Assembly: GCA_026004015.1 (NCBI GenBank)
Contig: BPIH01000001.1
Coordinates: 95,236-159,235, forward strand
Length of the DNA stretch: 64,000 nt
Direction: 5' to 3'
Source: Chloroflexota bacterium
Lineage (GTDB): Bacteria > Chloroflexota > Limnocylindria > Limnocylindrales > CSP1-4
Below the pieces are notes generated by a model that saw only the letters and a program-made list of their open reading frames with translations, did not search any database and had not been told where the DNA came from. Positions 15,331-51,555 of the stretch are shown in pieces. How positions within the stretch are numbered: the stretch's first letter is position 1; the number at the start of each line of letters is the position of its first letter. The position numbers were made by a program, and so were the translations under genes.

Positions 15331-16810
15331 TCGACTCCTCCGTGGGCGGGCAGCCTACCGAGCGCTCCGCTACCGAGCGCGTCGCCGAGCGCTCCGGCCA
15401 TGGCCCGGCCGGTGGTCGCCCGCCGGCCCCCGGGTCGGAGCCGATCGTCGCCATCGTCGGGGCAGGAATCGCCGGCCTCGTCGTCGCCCACCGCCTCGCC
15501 GCCATGGGCGTCCCGACTGCCATCGTCGACGCCGCGCCGCGCCCCGGCGGGCGGATCACCACCCGGCGGCAGGACGGCCTCGTGCTCGAAGCCGGTCCCG
15601 ACGGCTTCCTCGCCGGCCCGGCGGTGCTGGCCCTCTGCCGGGAGCTCGGCCTCGAGGGGGAGCTCGTCGAGCCGCTCCCGCCGGCGGCGACGAGCATCCT
15701 CTGGCGAGGGCGCCTCCACCCGCTGCCACCCGGGACGGCGGCCGGTGTCCCGGTCGCCCTCCGCGGCTTCTGGCCGACGGCGCTTCTGCGGCCCTGGGAG
15801 AAGGCCCGGGTCCTCCTCGATCTCGTCCTTCCGGGGGAAGGCGATGCCCTGGCCCTCGACGACCCCCTCGGCCCGGCCCTCCGTCGTCGTCTCGGGAGGG
15901 CGGTCGTGGAGCGCCTCGTCGAGCCCCTCCTCGGCGGGCTCCACGGTGGCGGTCTCGACGACCTCAGCGGCGGGGCCGTCGCGCCCTGGTTGGTGGACGT
16001 GCTCCGCCGGGGGAGCCTCGTCCGCGGCCTGCGCCGGCGTCACGGCGCTGCACCGATGCGGCTGCTGTCGCTGCACGGCGGGATGGAGCGGCTCGTCGAG
16101 GAGCTGGCCCGCGGCCTCGAGGGGCGAGCGAAGTGGCACCTTGGCCGTGGTGCCGAGGGAGTGGCACGGGGGCCGGAGGGCTGGCGGATCGTCCTCGAGG
16201 ACGGCAGCTCGCTGGAGGCTGCCGGTCTCGTCCTCGCCTGCCCGGCCCCGGCCGCCGGACGGCTCGTCGAGGGGGTCGATGGCGAGCTCGCCCGTCTCCT
16301 CGGGACGATCGCCTACGGGTCGCTCGCCGTCGTCAACCTGGCCTACCGGGAGGCCGACCTCGGCCGAGCCCCGGAGGGCCACGGCTTCCTCGTCCCTCGG
16401 GCGGAGCCCGGTCGGCTTCGAGGCGTGAGCTGGGCGTCCCGGAAGTGGCCGGGGCGGGCGCCCCCGGCGTCGTCCTGGCGCGGGCGTTCCTCGACCTCGA
16501 GCCCGGATCGGAACCCGCGAGCGAGGCCATCGCCGAGGAGGCCGTCGCGGGCCTCGAGCCGATCCTCGCACCGCGGCGGCTGCCCTTCGTGGTCGAGGTT
16601 CACCGCTTCGCCCGCTCGATGCCCCGCTACACCGTCGGTCACCTCGGACGGGTGGCGGCCATCGAGGCCCGGTGGCGCCGGCTGCCGGGGCTCTTCCTCG
16701 TCGGCTCGGCCTATCGCGGCGCCGGCATCGGGGAGCTCGTGGCGGCCGCCGAGGCGGTCGCTCGGGAGGCCGGGGCGGCTCTGGGCGCCGGAATCCGCGC
16801 CGCGACCTAG
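15327..16810 (+). CDS. hemY: Protoporphyrinogen/coproporphyrinogen oxidase (HemY/CgoX); frameshift near 16460
   Basis: 'IVGAGIAGL', 'RPGGRI', 'LEAGPDGF', 'GHGFLVP', 'KWPGRAP', then in the shifted frame 'MPRYTVGH...GSAYRGAGI'. Confidence 0.9.
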
Positions 16811-16898
16811 GCTCGGGCTCGGCTCGAGCTCGGCTCGAACTGCGCTCGAACTCGGCTCGACGTCGGCTCGAGCTCGGCTCGAACCGCGCTCGAACTCG
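16811..16898. repeat. 8 x 11-bp tandem repeat with a 44-bp higher-order period
   Basis: gctcgggctcg gctcgagctcg gctcgaactgc gctcgaactcg | gctcgacgtcg gctcgagctcg gctcgaaccgc gctcgaactcg. Confidence 0.9.
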
Positions 16899-16937
16899 GG
16901 GGTGTCCGGCCGGCGGGACTCGTCTATCCTGTCGGGC

Positions 16938-17947: not shown

Positions 17948-19094
17948 GTGGCCTCACCGTTGGCCGCCCCTTCCCTCGAGGGGGCCGGGATCTCGGCCCG
18001 CCTCCGGCTCGCCGAGGAGGTCGCGGGGGCTCTCGCCGCCGGCCGGCCGGTCGTCGCCCTCGAGTCGACGCTCATCAGCCACGGCCTCCCGTTCCCGGTC
18101 AACCTCGAGGTCGCGGCGGGCGCCGAGGAGGCGGTGCGGGGCGCCGGTGCGACGCCGGCGACGGTCGCCATCCGGGACGGCCAGATCCTCGTCGGCCTCG
18201 GGCGGGACGACCTCGTCGCTCTCGCCTCCTCGCCACCGGGCAGCGTTCGCAAGGCGTCTCGTTCCTCCCTCGCAGGGGCCCTCGCCCGAAAGGGCTGGGC
18301 GGCGACGACGGTCTCGGCGACGATGATCGTGGCTCGGGCGGCGGGAATCGCGGTCTTCGCGACCGGGGGGATCGGCGGGGTCCATCGGGGGGCCTTCGGT
18401 GGGGTCCTCGGCGGTTCCTCGGGGGCGGCCGCGGAGGCGTCTCCCGAGGCGGCCGGTCCCGGACCCGTGTCCGACGTTCGTACCGACCTCGCCGCTCCGG
18501 CATCCACGACCCGACCCGCCGCCGGCCGGCCGCCGAGCCTCGACGTCTCGGTCGACCTCGAGGAGCTGGCGCGGACACCGGTGGCCGTCGTCTGCGCCGG
18601 CCCGAAGGCGATCCTCGACGTCGCCGGGACCGTCGAGTGGCTCGAGGGCCGCGGGGTGCCGGTGCTCGTCATCGGCCAGCGGGAGGTCCCGGGCTTCTGG
18701 TGCCGGACGAGCGGCGTCTCCCGCGCCGGACACCGCCGCCGACGTGGCCGAGGCGGCGAAGGTCGTGGCGACCCACCTCGAGCTCGGCCTCGGCAGCGGA
18801 ATTCTCGTCTGCGTGCCGGTGCCCGAGTCGGCCGCCCTGCCCGACGACCTCGGTCGGGCCGCCGTCGAGCGGGCCGTGGCCGAAGCCGAGGCGGCGGGGA
18901 TCGGCGGCGCGGCGCTGACTCCGTGGCTGCTGGGCCGGATTGCCGAGCTGACCGACGGCGCCTCGCTTCGGGCGAACGCGGCCCTCATCGTCGAGAACGC
19001 CCGGGTGGCGGGCGAGCTGGCGCGCCGGGTGGCGGGCGAGCTCACCGGCCGGGTGACGGGCTCGCCCGTCCGCCGGGTTCCTGGAGGAGGCTGA
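17948..19094 (+). CDS. psuG: Pseudouridine-5'-phosphate glycosidase; frameshift near 18720
   Basis: 'VVALESTLISHGLP', 'ATTVSATM', 'FATGGIGGVHRG', 'DVSVDL', 'CAGPKAILD', then 'LTPWLLGRIAELTDGASLRAN'. Confidence 0.93.
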
Positions 19095-19119
19095 GCACAC
19101 CGAAGCCGGACGTGTGCGC

Positions 19120-19445
19120 GCGACGCCTCCACCGAACGGAACGCCCGCGCCGGCCGACCTCCGGGCCTGGGTGACGCCCACAGCGAGCAGAACGCGGCCC
19201 GCGGCGCGGACCCCGCCACTCGTGACACCCACAGCGAACGGAACGCCCGCGCCGGCCGACCTCCGGGCCGGGGTGACACCCATAGCGAACAGAACCCATC
19301 GATGGCCCGTTGACGGCGCCGACGTGACGCCCACCCCGAACAGAAGGTGTGGAGCCAGCTCGGATGCGATCTTCCTGTTCGCTCAGGGTGGCACTCCGGG
19401 CGACGACCGTCACCGGACCGGCGTTCTGTTCGGTCAAGGTAGCGG
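19120..19445. repeat. 51-bp-period array A: 5 forward + 2 inverted degenerate 23-bp repeats
   Basis: Forward repeats (GTGACRCCCAYAGCGAACRGAAC-like) start at 19120, 19171, 19222, 19273 and 19324. Inverted copies start at 19372 and 19423. Confidence 0.9.
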
Positions 19446-19580
19446 GCAGACCGACGCGGCGGTGGAACAGAGGTCTCGGCCGGTCCGGGCGCTGCGGGTG
19501 TAGACTGCCGCTCCGGTTCCAGCCAGGGTGTCCCGTGGCGGCAGGCCGCACCCGACACCCGACCCACATCCGAGGTTCCA

Positions 19581-23510: not shown

Positions 23511-26215
<2,705 letters not shown>

Positions 26216-41959: not shown

Positions 41960-42134
41960 GGGCAGTCCGGGCGCTGGCTCCGGACGACTCCGGACGACTC
42001 CTGGCGCCCGCTCCGGGGAGCGACTGCGGCGGGCGGCTCCGGGTGTCAGCCCGGGCGACGGCCCCGGCCCGGTCCCAGGGCTCGCGCCCCCGGCCCCAGG
42101 GCTCCCGACCCAGGCCCCAGGGCCCCGACCCCGA

Positions 42135-43301: not shown

Positions 43302-46061
43302 ATGATCAGCCCGACGATGACGATCCTGCCCCGGCGCGCCGAGGACCGCGCCTCCGACGTCTACCGCCTCGGCCGCCATCCCCTCGACCCGATCTTCCGA
43401 CCCCGCTCGGTCGCCGTCGTCGGGGCGACCGAGAAGGAGGGGAGCGTCGGCCGGACCGTCCTCTGGAACCTCATCTCGAGCCCCTTCGGCGGCACCGTCT
43501 TCCCCGTCAACCCGAAGCGCTCGAGCGTCCTCGGCGTCAAGGCCTATCCGAACCTCGCCGCCGTCCCCGACCCCATCGACCTCGCCGTCATCGTCACCCC
43601 GGCCGAGACGGCACCGGGACTCATGGAGGAGTGTGCCGCCGCCGGCGTCCGGGGCGTGATCATCATCTCGGCCGGCTTCAAGGAGAGTCGGCCCGGCCGG
43701 GGCGGCCCTCGAAGCCCAGGTCCTCGAGATCGCCCGCCGGGCCCGGATCCGGGTCGTCGGCCCGAACTGCCTCGGGGTCATGAACCCGATCTCGGGCTTG
43801 AACGCGACCTTCGCCGCCGGGATGGCGAAGGCGGGCTCGGTCGGCTTCGTCAGCCAGTCGGGCGCCCTCCTGACCGCCGTCCTCGACTGGAGCGCCCGCG
43901 AGGGCGTCGGCTTCAGCTCCGTCGTCTCCCTCGGCTCGATGCTCGACGTCGGCTGGGGCGACGTCATCTACTACCTCGGCGACGACCCGCACACCGAGAG
44001 CATCGTCATCTACATGGAGACCATCGGCGACGCCCGCTCCTTCCTGTCGGCCGCCCGGGAGGTCGCCCTCACGAAGCCGATCATCGTCATCAAGCCCGGC
44101 CGGACGGCCGAGGCCGCCCGCGCCGCCGCCTCCCACACCGGCTCCCTCACCGGCTCGGACGAGGTCCTCGCCGCCGCCTTCCGCCGGGTCGGTGTCCTGC
44201 GCGTCGACCGGATCAGCGATCTCTTCGGGATGGCCGAGGTCCTCGCCAAGCAACCCCGCCCGGCCGGTCCGCGCCTGACGATCGTGACGAACGCCGGCGG
44301 ACCCGGGGTCATCGCCACCGACGCCCTCGTCGCCGGCGGCGGTCGGCTCGCCGAGCTCGCCCCGGAGACGATGGCCGCCCTCGACGCCGTCCTCCCGCCG
44401 ACCTGGAGCCACAACAACCCGATCGACATCATCGGCGACGCGCCGCCCGAGCGGTACGCGAAGGCCCTCGAGATCGCCGCCCGCGATCCCGGGCTCCGAC
44501 GGCCTCCTCGTCATCCTCACGCCCCAGGCGATGACCGACCCGACCCGGACGGCCGAGGCGCTGACGGCCTACGCCCGGATCGACGGCAAGCCCGTCCTCG
44601 CCTCCTGGATGGGCGGCGCCGAGGTGGAGGCCGGGGCGACCATCCTCCGGCGGGCCGGGATCCCGACCTTCGACTACCCGGACACGGCGGTCGAGATGTT
44701 CAACTACCTCTGGCGCTCGGCCCAGGATCTCCGAGCCCTCTACGAGACGCCGTCCTTGCCGGCCGACGACGAGCGGGTCGTCGACCGGGCCCGGGCGGCA
44801 GCGGTCATCGAGGCGGCCCGGGCGGAGGGGCGGACGCTCCTGACCGAAGTCGAATCGAAGGCGGTCCTCTCGGCCTACGGGATCCCGATCACCGAGACGC
44901 GGGTCGCCCGGACCGAGGAGGAGGCGGTGGCCGCGGCCGAGGCGATCGGCTACCCGGTCGTCGTCAAGCTCTACAGCCACACGATCACCCACAAGACCGA
45001 CGTCGGCGGGCGTCGTCCTCAACCTCCACGACGCCGCCGCCGTCCGGGCTGCCTACCGGCAGATCGAGGCGGCGGTGACCGAGCGCCGGGGCCGGGAGCA
45101 CTTCGAGGGGGTGACGGTCCAGCCGATGATCAACTACACCGGCTACGAGCTCATCCTCGGCTCGTCCATCGACGACCAGTTCGGGCCGGTCCTCCTCTTC
45201 GGGATGGGCGGCCAGCTCGTCGAGCTCTTCCGGGATCGCAGCCTCGGCCTGCCGCCGCTCAACACGACCCTCGCCCGGCGGATGATCGAGCGGACGACGA
45301 TCTCCAAGGCCTTCGCCGGGATCCGGGGCCGGCGGCCGATCGATCAGGCGGCCCTCGAGGAGCTCCTCGTCCGCTTCAGCCTCCTCGTCGTCGAGCAGCG
45401 CTGGATCCGGGAGATCGACATCAACCCGCTCCTCGCCTCACCCGAGCGGCTGATCGCTCTCGACGCCCGGATCGTCCTTCACGATCCGGGTGTGACCGAG
45501 GCGGAGCTGCCGCGCCTGGCGATCCGACCGTATCCGCGACAGTACGTCGGGACGTGGACGGCCGCCGACGGGACCGAGCTCGTCCTCCGCCCGATCCGGC
45601 CCGAGGACGAGCCGGCCATGGTCCGCTTCCACCAGGCCCTCTCGGAGGAGACGGTCTACGCCCGCTACTTCGCCCACCTCGGGCTGACGGAGCGGATCGC
45701 CCACGACCGGCTCGTCCGGATCTGCTTCAACGATTACGACCGCGAGATCGCCCTCGTCGCCGAACGCCGCGACCCGGCGACGGGTGAGTCGGAGATCGTG
45801 GCCGTCGGGCGGCTGTCCAAGGCGCATGCGGTGCCCGCCGCCGAGTTCGCGATCCTCGTCGCCGACCGCTGGCAGCGGCGGGGGATCGGGACCGAGTTGT
45901 TGCGGCGGCTGGTCGAGATCGCCCGGGCCGAGGGGCTGGAACGGATCTGTGCCGAGATGCTCAGCGACAACGTCGGGATGCGGCGGATCGCCGAGCGGGT
46001 CGGCTTCCGGATCGAGGAGCGGCCGGGCGACGGGACACTCCGCGCGGAGCTCCTTCTCTGA
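43302..46061 (+). CDS. Acetate-CoA ligase (ADP-forming)-family protein fused to a C-terminal GNAT domain (Pat/YfiQ-like); frameshifts near 43690, 44490 and 45010
   Basis: '[10 protein letters not shown]', 'GPNCLG', 'SQSGA', 'SHTGSL', 'TNAGGPGV', 'HKTDVGG', 'DINPLL', and GNAT 'WQRRGIG'. Confidence 0.9.
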
Positions 46062-46140
46062 TCGAGGTGTCCCAGACCTCGCCGACGCCCCGAGCCCTGG
46101 TACGCCGGGCGGATCGGGGGTCCCTCCGCTACGTCGCGCC

Positions 46141-46517
46141 GTGTCGCCCTGGCCGAACAACACGCTCTTGCCTGAGCCCCCGGAGCCGTCCGCGTCGCCC
46201 AGAGCGAACACCTCGCGGTTCGCACTCGCCCGTGCGCTTGCCGTGTCGCTGTCAGCGAACATCACGTGGCTCCGCGCACCCTGGCCGCCGCCCACGTCGC
46301 CCACAGCGAACACTACGCGGGTCCTTCACCGGGCGAGGCGCGTACTGTTCGGCCATAGCGACGCGCGGGGCGGCCACCGGGCCGTCGGGCCCGTACTGTT
46401 CGGCCATAGCGACGCGCCGTGCAACCGGGAGCGCCGGATCCCCGAGATGTTCGGTCTGAGCGACGCGGCGAGCGGTCGGCGAGCCCGGATAGCGGTTCCG
46501 GTCGGCCCGAGCGACGT
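46141..46517. repeat. 51-bp-period array B: 4 forward + 4 inverted degenerate 23-bp repeats
   Basis: Forward repeats start at 46141, 46192, 46243 and 46294 (e.g. acgtcgcccacagcgaacactac). Inverted repeats start at 46342, 46393, 46444 and 46495 (e.g. gtactgttcggccatagcgacgc). Confidence 0.9.
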
Positions 46518-46656
46518 TCGTGCCACCCTCCCGCCCATCGACCGCGTTCGTTCGCCCGCCGATGGCTCGGGGCGACGGTGCCGCCGATCGGGCGTCCTGG
46601 TCGCCAGGCCGGCGCCTCGGCCAACTTCCCCTGGTCGGGACGACGGGCGCGCCGGC

Positions 46657-49203
46657 CTACCCCCGGACGACGACGTTGACGAGCCGCCCGTTGGCGGCGT
46701 GGATGATCCGCTCCGGTTGGCGGCCGCCGAGCAGCGCCGCGATCTTCGGGCGGGCGAGGACGAGCGCCTCGAGCTCCTCTCGGGAGATCCCGACCGGCAC
46801 CTCGATCCGGTCCCGGAGCTTGCCGTTCACCTGGATCGGCACCTCCCGCGTCTCCTCCGCCGCGGCCGCCTCGTCGACGGCCGGCCAGCGCTCGGTGTGG
46901 ATCGAGCGCCAGGCTTCGCCGCGCTCGGCGAGCCGCCGGCTCCAGAGCTCCTCGGTGATGTGCGGCGCCGATGGTGCAAGCATGAGGAGGAGGAGGTCGA
47001 TCGCCTCGTTCCAGGCGGGACCTCCGGCGACGACCGTTCCCCGGTACCGGAAGAGCGTGTTCGTCAGCTCCATGAGCTTGGCGACCATCGTGTTGAAGCG
47101 GAACGCCTCGTAATCCGCCGTCACCTCGCGAAGCGTCCGGTGGGCGGCCCGGCGGAGCGTCGCCGACGCCTTCGCCTCGTCCTCGCCCCCCGGCAGTCGG
47201 CCGGCCTCCGGATCGCCGGGCTCCGTCCCGCCCGGATCGAGGACGAGGGTCCAGACCCGGCGGAGGAACCGATGGACGCCCTCGATCCCGGTCGGGCTCC
47301 AGGGGCCGCCCTGGTCCCACGGCCCCATGAACATGAGGAAGAGCCGGACCGTGTCGGCGCCGTAGCGGGCCACGTAGTCGTCGGGGTCCTCGACGTTGCC
47401 GCGGCTCTTGCTCATCCGCTCGCCGTCGGCGCCGAGGATCTGGCCCTGGTTGAAGAGCCGCTTGAAGGGCTCCCGCTCGCCGACGAGCCCCAGATCGGCG
47501 AGGGCCTTCGTGAAGAAGCGGGCGTAGAGGAGGTGCATGACGGCGTGCTCGGCGCCGCCCGTGTACTGGTCGACGGGGCACCAGCGGTCGACGAGGGCCC
47601 GATCGAGGGGACCGTCGCCCTTCTTCGGCGACAGGTAGCGGTACCAGTACCAGGACGAATCGATGAAGGTGTCCATCGTGTCCGTCTCGCGGCGAGCCGG
47701 GCCACCGCAGCGCGGGCAGTCGACGTTCAGGAAGGCCGGGTCCCGCTTCAGCGGGTTGTCGCCGCGGCCCCGGTAGTCGACCTGCTCGGGGAGGAGGACC
47801 GGGAGATCCTCGTCGGGGACCGGCACGATGCCGTCGCGCTCGCAGTAGATGATCGGGATCGGCGTTCCCCAGTAGCGCTGGCGGCTGATGAGCCAGTCCC
47901 GGAGCCGGTACGTCACGGCCGGCCGGGCCCGGCCCGTCTCGCCGAGCCAGGCGACGATCGCCCGACCCCCGTCGTCGGCCGGCTGGCCGCTGAAGGGCCC
48001 CGAGTTCACGAGCCGCTCATCGCCGCCGTGGGCGACGAAGGCCTCGGTCAGTGGCGCATCCTCGGTCCCGGGCGCGGCCACGACCCGCCGGATCGGCAGC
48101 CCGTACCGAACGGCGAAGGCGAAGTCGCGCTCGTCGTGGGCCGGGACGCCCATGATCGCCCCGGTCCCGTAGCCCAGGAGGACGTAGTCGGCGATGAAGA
48201 TCGGGATCCGCTCGCCGGTGGCCGGGTTGACGGCGTCGGCCCCGATCGGAACGCCGGTCTTCTCCCGCTCCGTCGATAGCCGCTCGATCTCCGTCTCGGC
48301 CCGGGCTCGGGCGACGTAGGCCTCGACCTCGGTCCGCCGATCAGGGGCAGTGATCTCGGCGACGAGGGGATGCTCCGGGGCGAGGACCATGAAGGTCGCC
48401 CCGAAGAGGGTGTCCGGGCGGGTCGTGAAGACGCGAATTGGGGCGCCGCCCGGGTGGTGGTCGCTGGGCGCCGTCTCGAAGACGATCTCGGCCCCCTCGG
48501 AGCGGCCGATCCAGTTCGCCTGCATGACTCGGATCGGCTCCGGCCAGTCGATGCCCGAGAAGTCGAGGAGCTCGTCGGCGTACTTCGTGATCCGCAGGAA
48601 CCACTGCTCGAGGTCGCGCTTCTCGACCCGAGCGCCGCAGCGCCAGCAGCGTCGCTCGGCCCCCTCGACCTGCTCTCGGGCGAGGGTCCCGTCGTTCGGG
48701 CACCAGTCGACGGCGGCCATGGCCCGGTAAGCGAGACCGGCTTCGTAGAAGCGGAGGAAGAACCACTGGTTCCAGCGGTAGTACTCGGGATCGCAGGTTA
48801 CGACCTCGTGCTCCCAGTCGAAGGTCGCCCCCATGCTCCGGAGCTGGCGCCGCATGTTCTCGATGTTCCGCATCGTCCAGGTTGCCGGATGGATCCCGGA
48901 GCGGATGGCGGCGTTCTCGGCCGGCAGTCCGAAGGCGTCGAAGCCGATCGGGAAGAAGACGTTGTAGCCGTGCATCCGCCGGAAGCGGGCGAGGGCGTCG
49001 GTCGGGGTCTTGATGTACCAGTGCCCGATGTGAAGGTCGCCTGACGGGTACGGGTACATCGTCAGGAGGTAGTACTTCGGCCGGCTCGTGTCGGCGAGGT
49101 CGGTCCGGTAGAGGCCGAGCTCGGCCCAGCGAGCCTGCCAGCGCGGCTCGATCTCGGCCGGGTCGTAGCGCTCGGTGCGGATGCGGTCGCGGATCGTCGT
49201 CAC
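46657..49203 (-). CDS. leuS: Leucine--tRNA ligase
   Basis: 'YPYPSGDLHIGH', 'DAFGLPAENAA', 'FTTRPDT', 'DWLISRQRYWG', 'RMSKS', 'QVNGKLR'. Confidence 0.98.
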   Translation of the reverse strand: MTTIRDRIRTERYDPAEIEPRWQARWAELGLYRTDLADTSRPKYYLLTMYPYPSGDLHIGHWYIKTPTDALARFRRMHGYNVFFPIGFDAFGLPAENAAIRSGIHPATWTMRNIENMRRQLRSMGATFDWEHEVVTCDPEYYRWNQWFFLRFYEAGLAYRAMAAVDWCPNDGTLAREQVEGAERRCWRCGARVEKRDLEQWFLRITKYADELLDFSGIDWPEPIRVMQANWIGRSEGAEIVFETAPSDHHPGGAPIRVFTTRPDTLFGATFMVLAPEHPLVAEITAPDRRTEVEAYVARARAETEIERLSTEREKTGVPIGADAVNPATGERIPIFIADYVLLGYGTGAIMGVPAHDERDFAFAVRYGLPIRRVVAAPGTEDAPLTEAFVAHGGDERLVNSGPFSGQPADDGGRAIVAWLGETGRARPAVTYRLRDWLISRQRYWGTPIPIIYCERDGIVPVPDEDLPVLLPEQVDYRGRGDNPLKRDPAFLNVDCPRCGGPARRETDTMDTFIDSSWYWYRYLSPKKGDGPLDRALVDRWCPVDQYTGGAEHAVMHLLYARFFTKALADLGLVGEREPFKRLFNQGQILGADGERMSKSRGNVEDPDDYVARYGADTVRLFLMFMGPWDQGGPWSPTGIEGVHRFLRRVWTLVLDPGGTEPGDPEAGRLPGGEDEAKASATLRRAAHRTLREVTADYEAFRFNTMVAKLMELTNTLFRYRGTVVAGGPAWNEAIDLLLLMLAPSAPHITEELWSRRLAERGEAWRSIHTERWPAVDEAAAAEETREVPIQVNGKLRDRIEVPVGISREELEALVLARPKIAALLGGRQPERIIHAANGRLVNVVVRG

Positions 49204-50931: not shown

Positions 50932-51555
50932 ACCGACGGGCGCGTGCGCTCGGGCATCGCGACCAGCGGGAGAGTGTAGCACGGGGTCGGATCGAGCCGA
51001 ATCGGCCTGTCGGTGCTCCATGGGCGTGGTGCCGGCGTCGTCTCGCCCGGCCGGCCCCCGCCGATCGCGGACCTGCGGCTCGGGGAGGAGCCGTCGGCGA
51101 CCGGCTCGCCCCGCCCCGACCCGCCGGCGACCGGCTCGCCCCGCCCGATCCCGCCGGGTCCGCCTGTCGATCTCGTGACCGAGGCCTAGGGCGCACGCTT
51201 TCCGGCAGGCCCCGTGACCGTGGCCCACACCTCCGCCCTCGGCCGGGCCGCGGCGGGCCGCGGAGGGCCCGTCCCCGGCGTCCCTCGACCGGCCGTGCCG
51301 GTCGCTCAGCGCCCCGTCTTGCCCGAGCCGTGCCCCCCAGCGCACCGAATCGTAGGGCCGGCCCGCCGGGCGGCCCCGGTGCCAACCAAGATGTGCGTGG
51401 GGTGCACGCCCGAGCCGGGACGGCCCGTCACCGACCGTCACCCACCCTCACCGGCCGCCACCGGCCGCTCGACCCGAACTGGGCGGCCGAGGCGGCCCGT
51501 CGCACCGCTCGCATCCACCCCCTCGGCCCGTCGCCCCGGCCGTAGACTGGCGCCG

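What the first reader, a model, noticed from the sequence alone, without database searches (positions are those of the whole stretch)
46141..46517. Symmetric 4+4 convergent 51-bp array (locus B) between convergent genes
Seen: four forward repeats (core GYGTCGC-N5-SCGAACA) at 46141, 46192, 46243 and 46294. A 25-bp centre (46317-46341) follows, then four inverted repeats at 46342, 46393, 46444 and 46495; two of these are identical (gtactgttcggccatagcgacgc) and the outermost is the most decayed. All spacers differ, and they do not pair across the centre, so this is not a simple palindromic duplication. Only the repeats could pair, giving a ladder of 23-bp helices separated by 28-nt internal loops if transcribed. 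The array sits between the 3' ends of the acyl-CoA ligase/GNAT gene and leuS, whereas locus A lies between co-directional genes. It is therefore not just a bidirectional terminator. Inference: a dispersed family of bidirectional repeat-spacer arrays, possibly growing outward from the centre.
Basis: partly seen in the sequence, partly recalled or inferred. Interest (0 to 1): 0.85.

Follow-up and report, generated by a model that had tools for sequence, protein, structure and literature searches.

The report
Opposed 51-bp repeat arrays between genes
Two head-on runs of a 27-base motif, spaced every 51 bases, lie between genes at dozens of places in one genus of uncultured hot-spring actinobacteria; they are probably docking sites for a DNA-binding protein, and no described repeat family matches them.

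Summary
At 46139-46519 there are four forward and four inverted copies of a 27-nt motif (CGYGWCRCCCWSASCGAACANNACG), with period 51 and a 21-nt centre.

It belongs to a family of at least 14 intergenic arrays in this 55%-complete genome. Sister species hold about 20 or more each. The motif junction was found in 0 of 399 other genomes of the class.

Family rules:
- The order is always forward copies, then inverted copies.
- 189 of 216 within-arm periods are exactly 51.
- Arm sizes run from 1 to 7 and the two arms are uncorrelated.
- Spacers show no codon periodicity.
- Spacers do not pair across the centre, but they are related to neighbours in the same arm, so they are diverged tandem duplicates and not acquired.
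- Single repeats do not fold.
- Orthologous sites keep an array while its sequence, unit number and motif subtype turn over.

No RAYT gene was found, and there is no dependence on Cas1.

A new lead is a protein with an XRE helix-turn-helix domain and a nuclease-like PD-(D/E)XK fold. Its gene starts right after the most consensus-like array in G000, G001, G003 and one metagenome contig. A paralog follows an array of another motif subtype. More distant relatives are enriched for upstream tandem operator-like repeats (13 of 43 against 3 of 45 downstream).

Best reading (about 0.45): phased arrays of protein-binding sites at gene ends. The rivals are an RNA ladder or terminator, and a selfish satellite.

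The parts
46139..46318 (+). Left arm: four head-to-tail 27-nt repeats (46139, 46190, 46241, 46292) with three 24-nt spacers; the motif points towards the centre
   Evidence: PWM scores 32.0, 30.9, 32.5, 33.0; period 51
46319..46339 (.). Centre, 21 nt. Its sequence is not conserved in the family; its length is.
   Evidence: 45 arrays with junction 47-49; centres are unalike except in paralogous or orthologous pairs
46340..46519 (-). Right arm: four repeats in inverted orientation (46340, 46391, 46442, 46493). The first two cores are identical and the outermost is degenerate.
   Evidence: scores 33.0, 31.9, 31.9, 17.8
45075..46061 (+). Left flanking gene end (ATP-grasp_5 + GNAT acetyltransferase domains). 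It stops 78 nt before the array.
46657..49203 (-). Right flanking gene leuS, convergent. It stops 138 nt after the array.
19118..19447 (.). Locus A, a second member in the window: five forward repeats (19118, 19169, 19220, 19271, 19322) and two inverted (19370, 19421), of subtype GTGACRC, between co-directional + genes

Best explanation
Locus B is one member of a genus-restricted family of non-coding intergenic arrays. Each array is two independent head-to-tail tandem arrays of an asymmetric motif of about 24-27 bp. The motif has two conserved blocks, GWCRC and CGAACA, about 12 bp apart, plus a trailing ACG. The two arrays face each other and keep a 51-bp spacing.

Shown here: the architecture, its dispersal, the fixed period, the lack of coding signal, the lack of pairing constraint between arms, evolution by duplication of one or two units, and persistence at orthologous sites while the sequence turns over.

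Inferred: the repeats work in the DNA as phased, oriented binding sites for a sequence-specific protein. The best candidate is a 264-aa protein with an XRE helix-turn-helix domain and a C-terminal PD-(D/E)XK nuclease-like fold (G000:C1:288452-289246, outside the window). Its own gene starts just after the most consensus-like array.

More speculative: bound arrays at gene ends act as barriers or as topological or insulating points between transcription units. Alternatively they are simply amplified operator sites that titrate the protein.
For: Period and length constraint:
- 189 of 216 within-arm distances are 51, 8 are 50 and 11 are 52, although unrelated spacers are no more alike than chance (10.65 of about 24).
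- The junction is 48 start-to-start in 7 of the 10 two-armed clusters of G000 found without reference to the junction. If the site centre is placed midway in the conserved block, this is again about one period (47-52 depending on where the centre is put; my inference).

Not coding: spacer GC by phase is 0.75/0.80/0.77 (58 units), against 0.69/0.49/0.94 in leuS.

Not a hairpin unit: 8 of 9 single repeats fold no better than shuffles.

No selection for arm-to-arm pairing:
- Left spacer against reverse complement of right spacer: 10.90 matches, against 10.96 for mismatched partners, p = 0.74.
- Repeat variable positions: same-rank L/R 8.47, other rank 8.36, other arrays 8.03, same-arm neighbours 11.71 of 16.
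- Arm sizes are uncorrelated, r = 0.15.

Orientation rule: forward then inverted in 10 of 10 two-armed clusters in G000 and in 17 of 17 two-armed clusters listed for the third motif subtype.

Orthologous sites keep arrays while unit number and subtype change.

Protein link:
- The HTH gene begins 27 nt after array C in G000.
- Orthologs in G001 (95%), G003 (84%) and a metagenome contig (84%, array 4+2) are likewise preceded by an array.
- A 73% paralog in G001 is preceded by an array of the third subtype. It differs at three positions of the presumed recognition helix (helix assignment is mine).
- These arrays rank 1st of 7, 1st of 16 and 2nd of 20 by match to a matrix built from loci A and B.
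- Among 61 metagenome loci with relatives, 13 of 43 upstream regions against 3 of 45 downstream regions hold long-period (40-120) tandem repeats.
- Several of these repeats carry an imperfect-dyad motif with an A-rich tail that resembles the one here (the resemblance is by eye).
Against: - No binding, expression or phenotype data exist.
- G002 has the most units of the third subtype (127), yet no close homolog of the HTH protein was found in it. The whole 5-kb region is missing from that 92%-complete assembly, so this is a contradiction or an assembly gap, and I cannot tell which.
- A third paralog (46%) has no array within the 418 nt upstream that are held.
- The family of this protein is widespread in genomes without these arrays.
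- Adjacency at orthologous loci is shared ancestry, so only two or three associations are independent.
- Some of the 13 upstream hits come from near-identical organisms (L176, L178, L180).
- 51 bp is not a whole number of 10.5-bp turns.
- The structure model is of middling quality (mean pLDDT 69) and the fold matches are Z 7-9, a range in which chance arrangements also occur.
- The motif kinship with distant relatives' repeats was judged by eye.
Confidence: 0.45

Rival explanations
1. RNA-level element. Read-through transcripts from either side first carry the sense motifs and then their complements. They fold into a long imperfect hairpin ('ladder' or beads-on-a-string) that ends transcription, protects 3' ends or is processed.
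For: - 32 of 34 arrays with both flanks called face at least one gene 3' end. 14 of 34 lie between convergent genes, against 108 of 729 (15%) of all intergenic gaps from a crude gene caller.
- The array reads alike on both strands.
- Both strands of 46120-46540 fold better than all 100 shuffles (z -3.85 and -4.51).
- No canonical terminator lies between the two convergent genes.
- A 2026 preprint describes the same forward-then-reverse-complement logic at periods of 7-8 nt and proposes such a fold (passages read).
Against: - There is no covariation between arms and no complementarity of spacers.
- Arm sizes are uncorrelated, for example 7+2, 6+2 and 1+5, so many units would have no partner.
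- The helices would be interrupted: in L0/R0 of locus B, 6 bp, then a 6x6 loop, then 6+5 bp (read).
- A strict 24-nt loop length is not needed for such a fold.
- There is no Rfam match.
- A good fold is expected from any inverted repeat.
Confidence: 0.2
2. Selfish or neutral satellite. A small palindromic seed was copied to new intergenic sites, and each arm expanded by replication slippage or unequal exchange, with no benefit to the cell.
For: - Two pairs of paralogous arrays within a genome have unrelated flanks.
- One orthologous site is filled in G003 and lacks an array in G001.
- Runs of identical units, including spacers, occur in G002.
- The family is restricted to the genus: 2 of 401 class genomes, both of this genus.
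- Assemblies break in arrays.
- An IS256-family element is inserted in one arm.
Against: - The motif and the period are kept while spacers randomise.
- Arrays persist at the same sites in four species despite complete sequence turnover.
- Array ends are sharp, with no tail of decayed units and no conserved termini (information 0.11 bits or less outside the unit).
- No transposase is associated.
- In contigs of four other samples, the parts of the array they cover stay in the same register; one contig (X2) spans the whole array.
Confidence: 0.2
3. CRISPR-like adaptive array with spacers acquired from foreign DNA.
For: Repeat length (23-27) and spacer length (24-28) are in the CRISPR range, and most spacers differ.
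Against: - There are two opposed arms.
- Repeats within an arm differ (11.7 of 16 variable positions shared).
- Neighbouring spacers are related.
- There are about 14-25 small arrays per genome.
- Cas1 was not found in G003 (92% complete, at least 20 arrays) or in G000.
- Spacer hits outside arrays were mostly 16-18-nt chance-level matches. One spacer matched five places (two exact 18-mers, three full-length matches of 22-23 of 24), which I take to be GC-rich low-complexity sequence. 63 hits came from 213 spacers at E <= 0.01.
Confidence: 0.02
4. Remnant or unannotated coding repeats. 51 = 17 codons, and one frame reads as hydrophobic-F-G/A-x-G-D.
For: 51 and 48 are multiples of three, and long ORFs cross the array.
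Against: - Spacers have no third-position GC excess.
- Such ORFs are expected at 73% GC.
- Reading frames would run outward from a 21-nt centre on both strands.
- Periods of 50 and 52 occur in 19 of 216 cases.
Confidence: 0.01

Closest known systems
REP clusters / BIMEs of proteobacteria (passages of PMC3733652 read; abstracts of PMC2817692 and PMC3333891 seen in the listing)
   Same: Short extragenic repeats, dispersed, clustered at regular spacing, placed after genes. They are species- or genus-specific, are targets of IS insertion, and are thought to bind proteins and affect supercoiling or termination.
   Different: - REP units are stable palindromes with 5-13 bp stems. These units do not fold.
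- BIME units alternate in orientation. Here all units of an arm are head to tail, with a single switch.
- No RAYT gene was found.
- REPs were not reported in Actinobacteria in that survey (0 occurrences of the word).
Uncharacterised 'beads-on-a-string' arrays of the 2026 preprint 10.64898/2026.10.21.760802 (passages read)
   Same: A forward array is followed by its reverse-complemented copy. Only the fixed parts are complementary and the variable parts are not. No effector is known, and the location is intergenic.
   Different: The preprint arrays have periods of 8 and 7 nt with 3-nt variable parts, against 51 nt here. They come from other phyla (Chloroflexota, Patescibacteriota), mostly between co-directional genes. 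I could not compare sequences.
Tandem binding-site arrays of plasmids (iterons; centromere arrays such as sopC of F with 43-bp units).
   Same: A conserved protein-binding motif is embedded in a longer unit that repeats at a fixed period. A cognate DNA-binding protein is encoded beside an array.
   Different: Those arrays have one orientation and one locus per replicon. Here there are two opposed arms at about 14-25 or more chromosomal loci, mostly far from the candidate gene.
CRISPR arrays
   Same: Repeat and spacer sizes; a fixed period.
   Different: See the membership test: orientation, repeat identity, spacer origin and cas linkage all fail.
Opposed groups of polar barrier sites (Ter/Tus-type fork traps; arrays of polar terminator boxes behind rRNA genes). 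Recalled.
   Same: Oriented protein-binding sites sit in two groups facing each other, which gives a direction-dependent block from both sides.
   Different: Those groups are spread over hundreds of kilobases or lie in one orientation. Nothing here shows polarity of action.

Membership tests
CRISPR array | Direct repeats all in one orientation and nearly identical within an array | tested here: not met
   There are two opposed arms in every two-armed array. Same-arm neighbours share 11.7 of 16 variable positions.
CRISPR array | Spacers unrelated to each other and derived from foreign DNA | tested here: not met
   16% of adjacent and 22% of next-but-one spacers share 18 or more of about 24 bases, against 0.2% at random. 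No convincing protospacer was found in G000. Viral collections were not searched.
CRISPR array | cas genes (Cas1) in the genome or beside the array | tested here: not met
   PF01867 was found in G001 and G002 only, not in G003 (92% complete, at least 20 arrays) or G000 (55% complete). Flanking genes are housekeeping.
REP / BIME | Each unit is an imperfect palindrome that folds as a stable hairpin | tested here: not met
   8 of 9 units have z between -1.5 and +0.7 against shuffles; one has z -2.4. The GTGACRC subtype loses the weak dyad.
REP / BIME | Alternating orientation of neighbouring units in clusters | tested here: not met
   Units are head to tail within arms with one switch per array.
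REP / BIME | Extragenic, mostly downstream of genes | tested here: met
   All arrays are intergenic. 32 of 34 face at least one 3' end.
REP / BIME | RAYT (Y1 transposase) in the genome, flanked by the repeats | tested here: not met
   PF01797 was found in 0 of 26 genomes, G000-G003 included. The control rang in 6 of 14 reference genomes.
MITE | Defined ends with terminal inverted repeats, a target-site duplication and a roughly fixed size | tested here: inconclusive
   No conserved sequence lies outside the outermost repeat (87 ends). Size varies from 3 to 15 units. Target duplications could not be read because no alignable empty site was found.
Tandem operator / iteron-type binding-site array | A conserved motif of binding-site size at a fixed period, with less constrained DNA between | tested here: met
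   The information profile shows a conserved block at positions 2-20 plus 23-25 and spacers near zero. The period is 51 in 189 of 216 cases.
Tandem operator / iteron-type binding-site array | A cognate DNA-binding protein that binds the repeats | not testable with these tools
   There is only a candidate: the XRE-HTH + PD-(D/E)XK-like gene next to arrays in G000, G001 (twice), G003 and L145, and upstream repeats in relatives.
'Beads-on-a-string' inverted arrays (2026 preprint) | A forward array followed by a reverse-complemented array, with only the fixed parts complementary | tested here: met
'Beads-on-a-string' inverted arrays (2026 preprint) | Period of 7-8 nt with 3-nt variable parts | tested here: not met
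   The period is 51 with 24-nt variable parts.
MIRU-type VNTR of mycobacteria (recalled) | The whole unit of about 51-77 bp is conserved between copies, in one orientation | tested here: not met
   Only 27 of the 51 bases are conserved, and there are two orientations.

The most novel reading that the evidence does not exclude
The arrays and the HTH + PD-(D/E)XK-fold protein form one system of a new kind. In this reading, a site-specific protein multiplies its own binding sites in tandem and seeds them at new intergenic places, for example by nicking at its sites. The resulting opposed, phased arrays then serve the cell as two-way barriers between transcription units. Paralogous proteins and motif subtypes would co-evolve as matched pairs.
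Probability: 0.12. Interest if true: 0.85.

Novelty: new variant of a known kind. Interest (0 to 1): 0.66.

Why it matters
Dispersed intergenic repeats are known mainly from proteobacteria (REP/BIME). This family comes from uncultured high-GC Actinomycetota and has a different grammar: non-palindromic units, a strict 51-bp lattice, and two opposed arms.

It also comes with a concrete, testable protein candidate. If the protein binds, this would be a rare case in which a regulator's operator has been amplified into dozens of phased arrays across a chromosome. It would also give a handle on how transcription units are separated in genomes that lack canonical terminators.

On the practical side, these arrays break short-read assemblies. 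They can also be mistaken for CRISPR arrays.

Tried and rejected
- Coding repeats: rejected on spacer GC by phase.
- CRISPR: rejected.
- REP-RAYT: rejected.
- Rfam: one noise hit only, mir-662 at E 0.19.
- Canonical promoter or terminator consensus in 45900-46800: none found.
- RNA evidence: no RNA holder was listed for the stretch, so expression could not be examined.
- Unit-number polymorphism within the population:
  - Contigs of four runs from four studies keep the same register over the parts they cover. X2 has a 1097-nt record across the whole array with two 1-nt gaps. X3 has 270 nt with 0 differences. X4 has 362 nt with 3 differences. X5 has 511 nt with 33 differences.
  - Two low-depth records that return to an earlier place, with 18-20 extra letters (+51 or +52 in all), may be an extra unit or cross-mapping from other arrays. 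I do not count them.
- Empty site for locus B:
  - Genes downstream of leuS differ in the five other-genus loci I read.
  - No 51-bp signal stands there in the 11 other-genus loci of the family or the 3 of the small-genome genus that I scanned, 14 of the 19 other-genus loci returned.
  - So no boundary or target duplication could be read.
- Empty site for G003:C61: G001 has 277 nt there instead of 1010 nt and no array, but the two regions are not alignable.
- The only hit outside the genus to the exact junction pattern in the species collection (L011) is a single hairpin with arms of about 55 bp, not an array. The genome reached through its locus has only three chance-like matches.
- LexA-type half sites, DnaA boxes, parS and similar were considered from memory only and dropped, because G002's subtype replaces the CGAACA block.
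- Flanking genes of the G000 arrays are unrelated housekeeping genes.
- Tandem repeats near more distant HTH paralogs in G001-G003 (periods 72/73, 88, 33) gave no clear picture.
- Literature: searches found no description of such arrays apart from the 2026 preprint. Supplements were not consulted and may hold the preprint's cluster sequences.
Full report
**1. The observation**

The region 46139-46519 holds eight copies of a 27-nt motif. Four are forward (starts 46139, 46190, 46241, 46292) and four are inverted (46340, 46391, 46442, 46493). Start-to-start distances are 51, 51, 51, 48, 51, 51, 51.

- The two innermost inverted 23-mers are identical.
- The outermost inverted copy is degenerate, at 17.8 bits against 31-33 for the others.
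- The core pattern with up to one mismatch occurs 18 times in the window against 3.4 expected; 0 of 100 shuffles reach 18, and 13 of the 18 lie in loci A and B.
- The array lies between a gene ending in ATP-grasp_5 + GNAT domains (+ strand, stop at 46061) and leuS (- strand, stop at 46657).
- No promoter-like or terminator-like consensus is found in 45900-46800.

**2. A family, and its rules**

The window is G000:C1:95236-159235, in a 1.37-Mb assembly of 9 contigs that is 73% GC and 55% complete. A position matrix made from loci A and B finds 12 clusters in G000. A search for a third motif subtype adds one more (C8) and completes another (C7). After joining the two clusters that an IS separates, this gives about 12-14 arrays, depending on how they are counted.

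The consensus is CGYGWCRCCCWSASCGAACANNACG. Spacer positions carry almost no information (58 units).

Three motif subtypes exist:
- GCGTCGC...CGAACA
- GTGACRC...CGAACA
- GTGACGSC...CTKGACA

**3. Distribution**

- The junction pattern occurs 8 times in G000 (7 of them in arrays), 18 times in G001, 20 in G003 and 2 in G002, all of one genus. Eleven other genomes of the family or order have 1-3 chance-looking matches and 26 have none.
- A stricter pattern is found in 2 of 401 genomes of the class. Both are of this genus, and they were the only two of the genus sampled.
- An exact scan of one genome per species gave one outside hit, titled as an Actinomycetota MAG. It is a single hairpin and not an array.
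- G002 mostly uses the third subtype: 127 units, against 10, 22 and 1 in G000, G001 and G003.
- Downstream of leuS, the three genus genomes scanned show the 51-bp signal. The 11 other-genus loci of the family and the 3 of the small-genome genus that I scanned do not. This was 14 of the 19 other-genus loci returned.
- Contigs from runs labelled hot springs (X3) and microbial mat (X5), and from two other runs, carry parts of this array.

**4. What it is not**

- *Not coding.* Spacer GC by phase is 0.75/0.80/0.77, against 0.69/0.49/0.94 by codon position in leuS.
- *Not REP-like.* 8 of 9 single units fold no better than shuffles. No Y1 transposase was found in 0 of 26 genomes, with a working control.
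- *Not CRISPR-like.* Same-arm spacers are related, with 18 or more of about 24 matches in 16% of adjacent and 22% of next-but-one pairs against 0.2% of random pairs. Repeats vary within arms. Cas1 was not found in G003 or G000. Spacer matches elsewhere in G000 look like chance.
- *No Rfam family*.

**5. How it evolves**

At the orthologous locus B:
- G003 has 5+4 units of the first subtype.
- G001 has 3+>=4 units of the second subtype, at a contig end.
- G002 has 9+6 units of the third subtype, with runs of units identical even in their spacers, although its flanks are 92-97% identical to the window.

Locus A is 5+2 of the second subtype here and 7+2 of the first subtype in G003. Another orthologous pair shows the same change of subtype. 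So arrays stay at their sites while units are duplicated, lost and replaced.

Near-identical strains in four other samples keep the same register over the parts of locus B that their contigs cover, and one contig (X2) spans the whole array.

Two pairs of arrays within one genome are homologous only over the array, with unrelated flanks. They are most alike at the centre and the inner units. This fits copying of a small core followed by outward growth, or faster turnover at the outer ends. One site is filled in G003 and lacks an array in G001, but the two regions cannot be aligned.

**6. DNA or RNA?**

Both strands of the array fold better than shuffles (z -3.85 and -4.51), as any inverted repeat would. 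Three results argue against selection for pairing between the arms:
- Spacers of equal rank are not complementary: 10.90 against 10.96 matches, p = 0.74.
- Repeats of equal rank in the two arms share no more variable positions (8.47 of 16) than repeats of other ranks (8.36), and barely more than repeats of other arrays (8.03). Neighbours in one arm share 11.71.
- Arm sizes are uncorrelated.

What is conserved is a block of about 24 bp, its orientation and the exact spacing. If the centre of the site is placed in the middle of the conserved block, the 48-nt junction is again about one period. That step is my inference and depends on where the centre is put (range 47-52). This pattern is what one expects of phased protein-binding sites in DNA.

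**7. A candidate protein**

Array C (G000:C1:286647-288425) is 3+5 units, and its right arm is split by an IS256-family element with an 8-bp duplication. It ends 27 nt before a 264-aa gene that encodes an XRE-type helix-turn-helix domain (residues 52-106).

*The fold.* The predicted model has mean pLDDT 69 and was built from five sequences. Its C-terminal part, residues about 120-257, matches PD-(D/E)XK nuclease folds:

| Match | Z |
|---|---|
| NucS nuclease domain (100 residues aligned, rmsd 3.1) | 9.1 |
| fdxN-element excision-controlling factor protein (2okf) | 8.1 |
| AF2093 | 7.9 |
| AF1548 | 7.9 |
| BstEII | 7.6 |
| Can2 | 7.4 |
| Hjc | 7.1 |

. These values are moderate.

*Orthologs and paralogs.*
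- Orthologs in G001 (95%), G003 (84%) and a metagenome contig (84%) also start just after an array.
- Those arrays are the closest to the family consensus in their genomes: rank 1 of 7, 1 of 16 and 2 of 20.
- A 73% paralog in G001 starts after an array of the third subtype at a contig start. It differs at three positions of the presumed recognition helix.

*More distant relatives.* Among 61 metagenome loci with relatives (mostly 44-55% identity), 13 of 43 upstream regions hold tandem repeats of period 40-120, against 3 of 45 downstream regions. The periods seen are 61, 72-73, 83 and 113. Several carry an imperfect dyad followed by an A-rich tail that resembles the motif here. That resemblance was judged by eye, and some loci come from near-identical organisms.

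*Against the link.*
- No close homolog was found in G002. That assembly lacks the whole region.
- A 46% paralog has no array in the 418 nt held upstream.
- In G001:C196 the LytR_cpsA_psr-family gene and the sugar-transferase gene, which flank the array and the HTH gene in G000, lie 39 bp apart with neither between them.

**8. Verdict**

The description is secure. The mechanism is inferred.

- Most likely (about 0.45), the arrays are phased, oriented binding sites for this HTH/nuclease-fold protein family, amplified and dispersed to gene ends in one genus.
- An RNA ladder or terminator (0.2) and a functionless satellite (0.2) remain open.

The nearest described things are REP/BIME clusters (passages of PMC3733652) and the uncharacterised inverted arrays of 7-8-nt period in a 2026 preprint (passages). 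Neither shares the unit structure. I found no description of this family in searches. Supplements were not seen.

Noticed in passing
G000:C1:286875-288296 (outside the window; L012:1876-3297): An IS256-family insertion sequence (411-aa Transposase_mut protein) sits inside the right arm of array C, with imperfect inverted ends and an 8-bp duplication of spacer sequence.
   Followed up: partly
G000:C1:288452-289246 (outside the window; L072): A 264-aa protein with an XRE helix-turn-helix domain and a C-terminal PD-(D/E)XK nuclease-like fold that no Pfam family covers. Atlas look-alike clusters have 76-169 members, commonest in Chloroflexota. Its gene follows an array in G000, G001, G003 and one metagenome contig.
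   Followed up: yes
L154:2102-2317, L176:1-165, L147:2260-2379, L160:41-158, L191:359-507: Relatives of that protein in metagenome contigs have 2-3 tandem units of 61-113 bp upstream, each with an imperfect-dyad, operator-like motif. These are whole-unit repeats in one orientation, unlike the arrays here.
   Followed up: partly
G001:C196:24971-27278: A paralogous copy of the cell-envelope gene pair (LytR_cpsA_psr-family protein and bacterial sugar transferase) that flanks array C and the HTH gene in G000. Here the two lie 39 bp apart with neither the array nor the HTH gene between them.
   Followed up: no
window 19001-19078: A 24-bp tandem repeat (about 3 copies) just before locus A. It lies in what reads as the 3' end of the upstream + gene.
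   Followed up: no
window 16795-16899, 24405-24471, 42068-42133, 51091-51157: Other tandem repeats with periods of 44, 21, 21 and 30 bp in the window. It is not known whether they are coding.
   Followed up: no
G001:C20:739-1578 and G002:C154:687-1556: Cas1 genes, so true CRISPR-Cas systems exist in two of the four genomes of the genus. They are unrelated to the arrays.
   Followed up: no
G001:C214 end / C189 end; G002:C106 end / C37 start; G001:C26 start: Short-read assemblies of the sister genomes break inside these arrays. Array numbers and lengths are therefore lower bounds, and genes flanked by arrays may be lost from bins.
   Followed up: partly
L136:1026-1239 and 195-463 (G001:C116): Further tandem repeats of 72 and 88 bp near a distant paralog of the HTH gene. 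Their relation to it is unclear.
   Followed up: no
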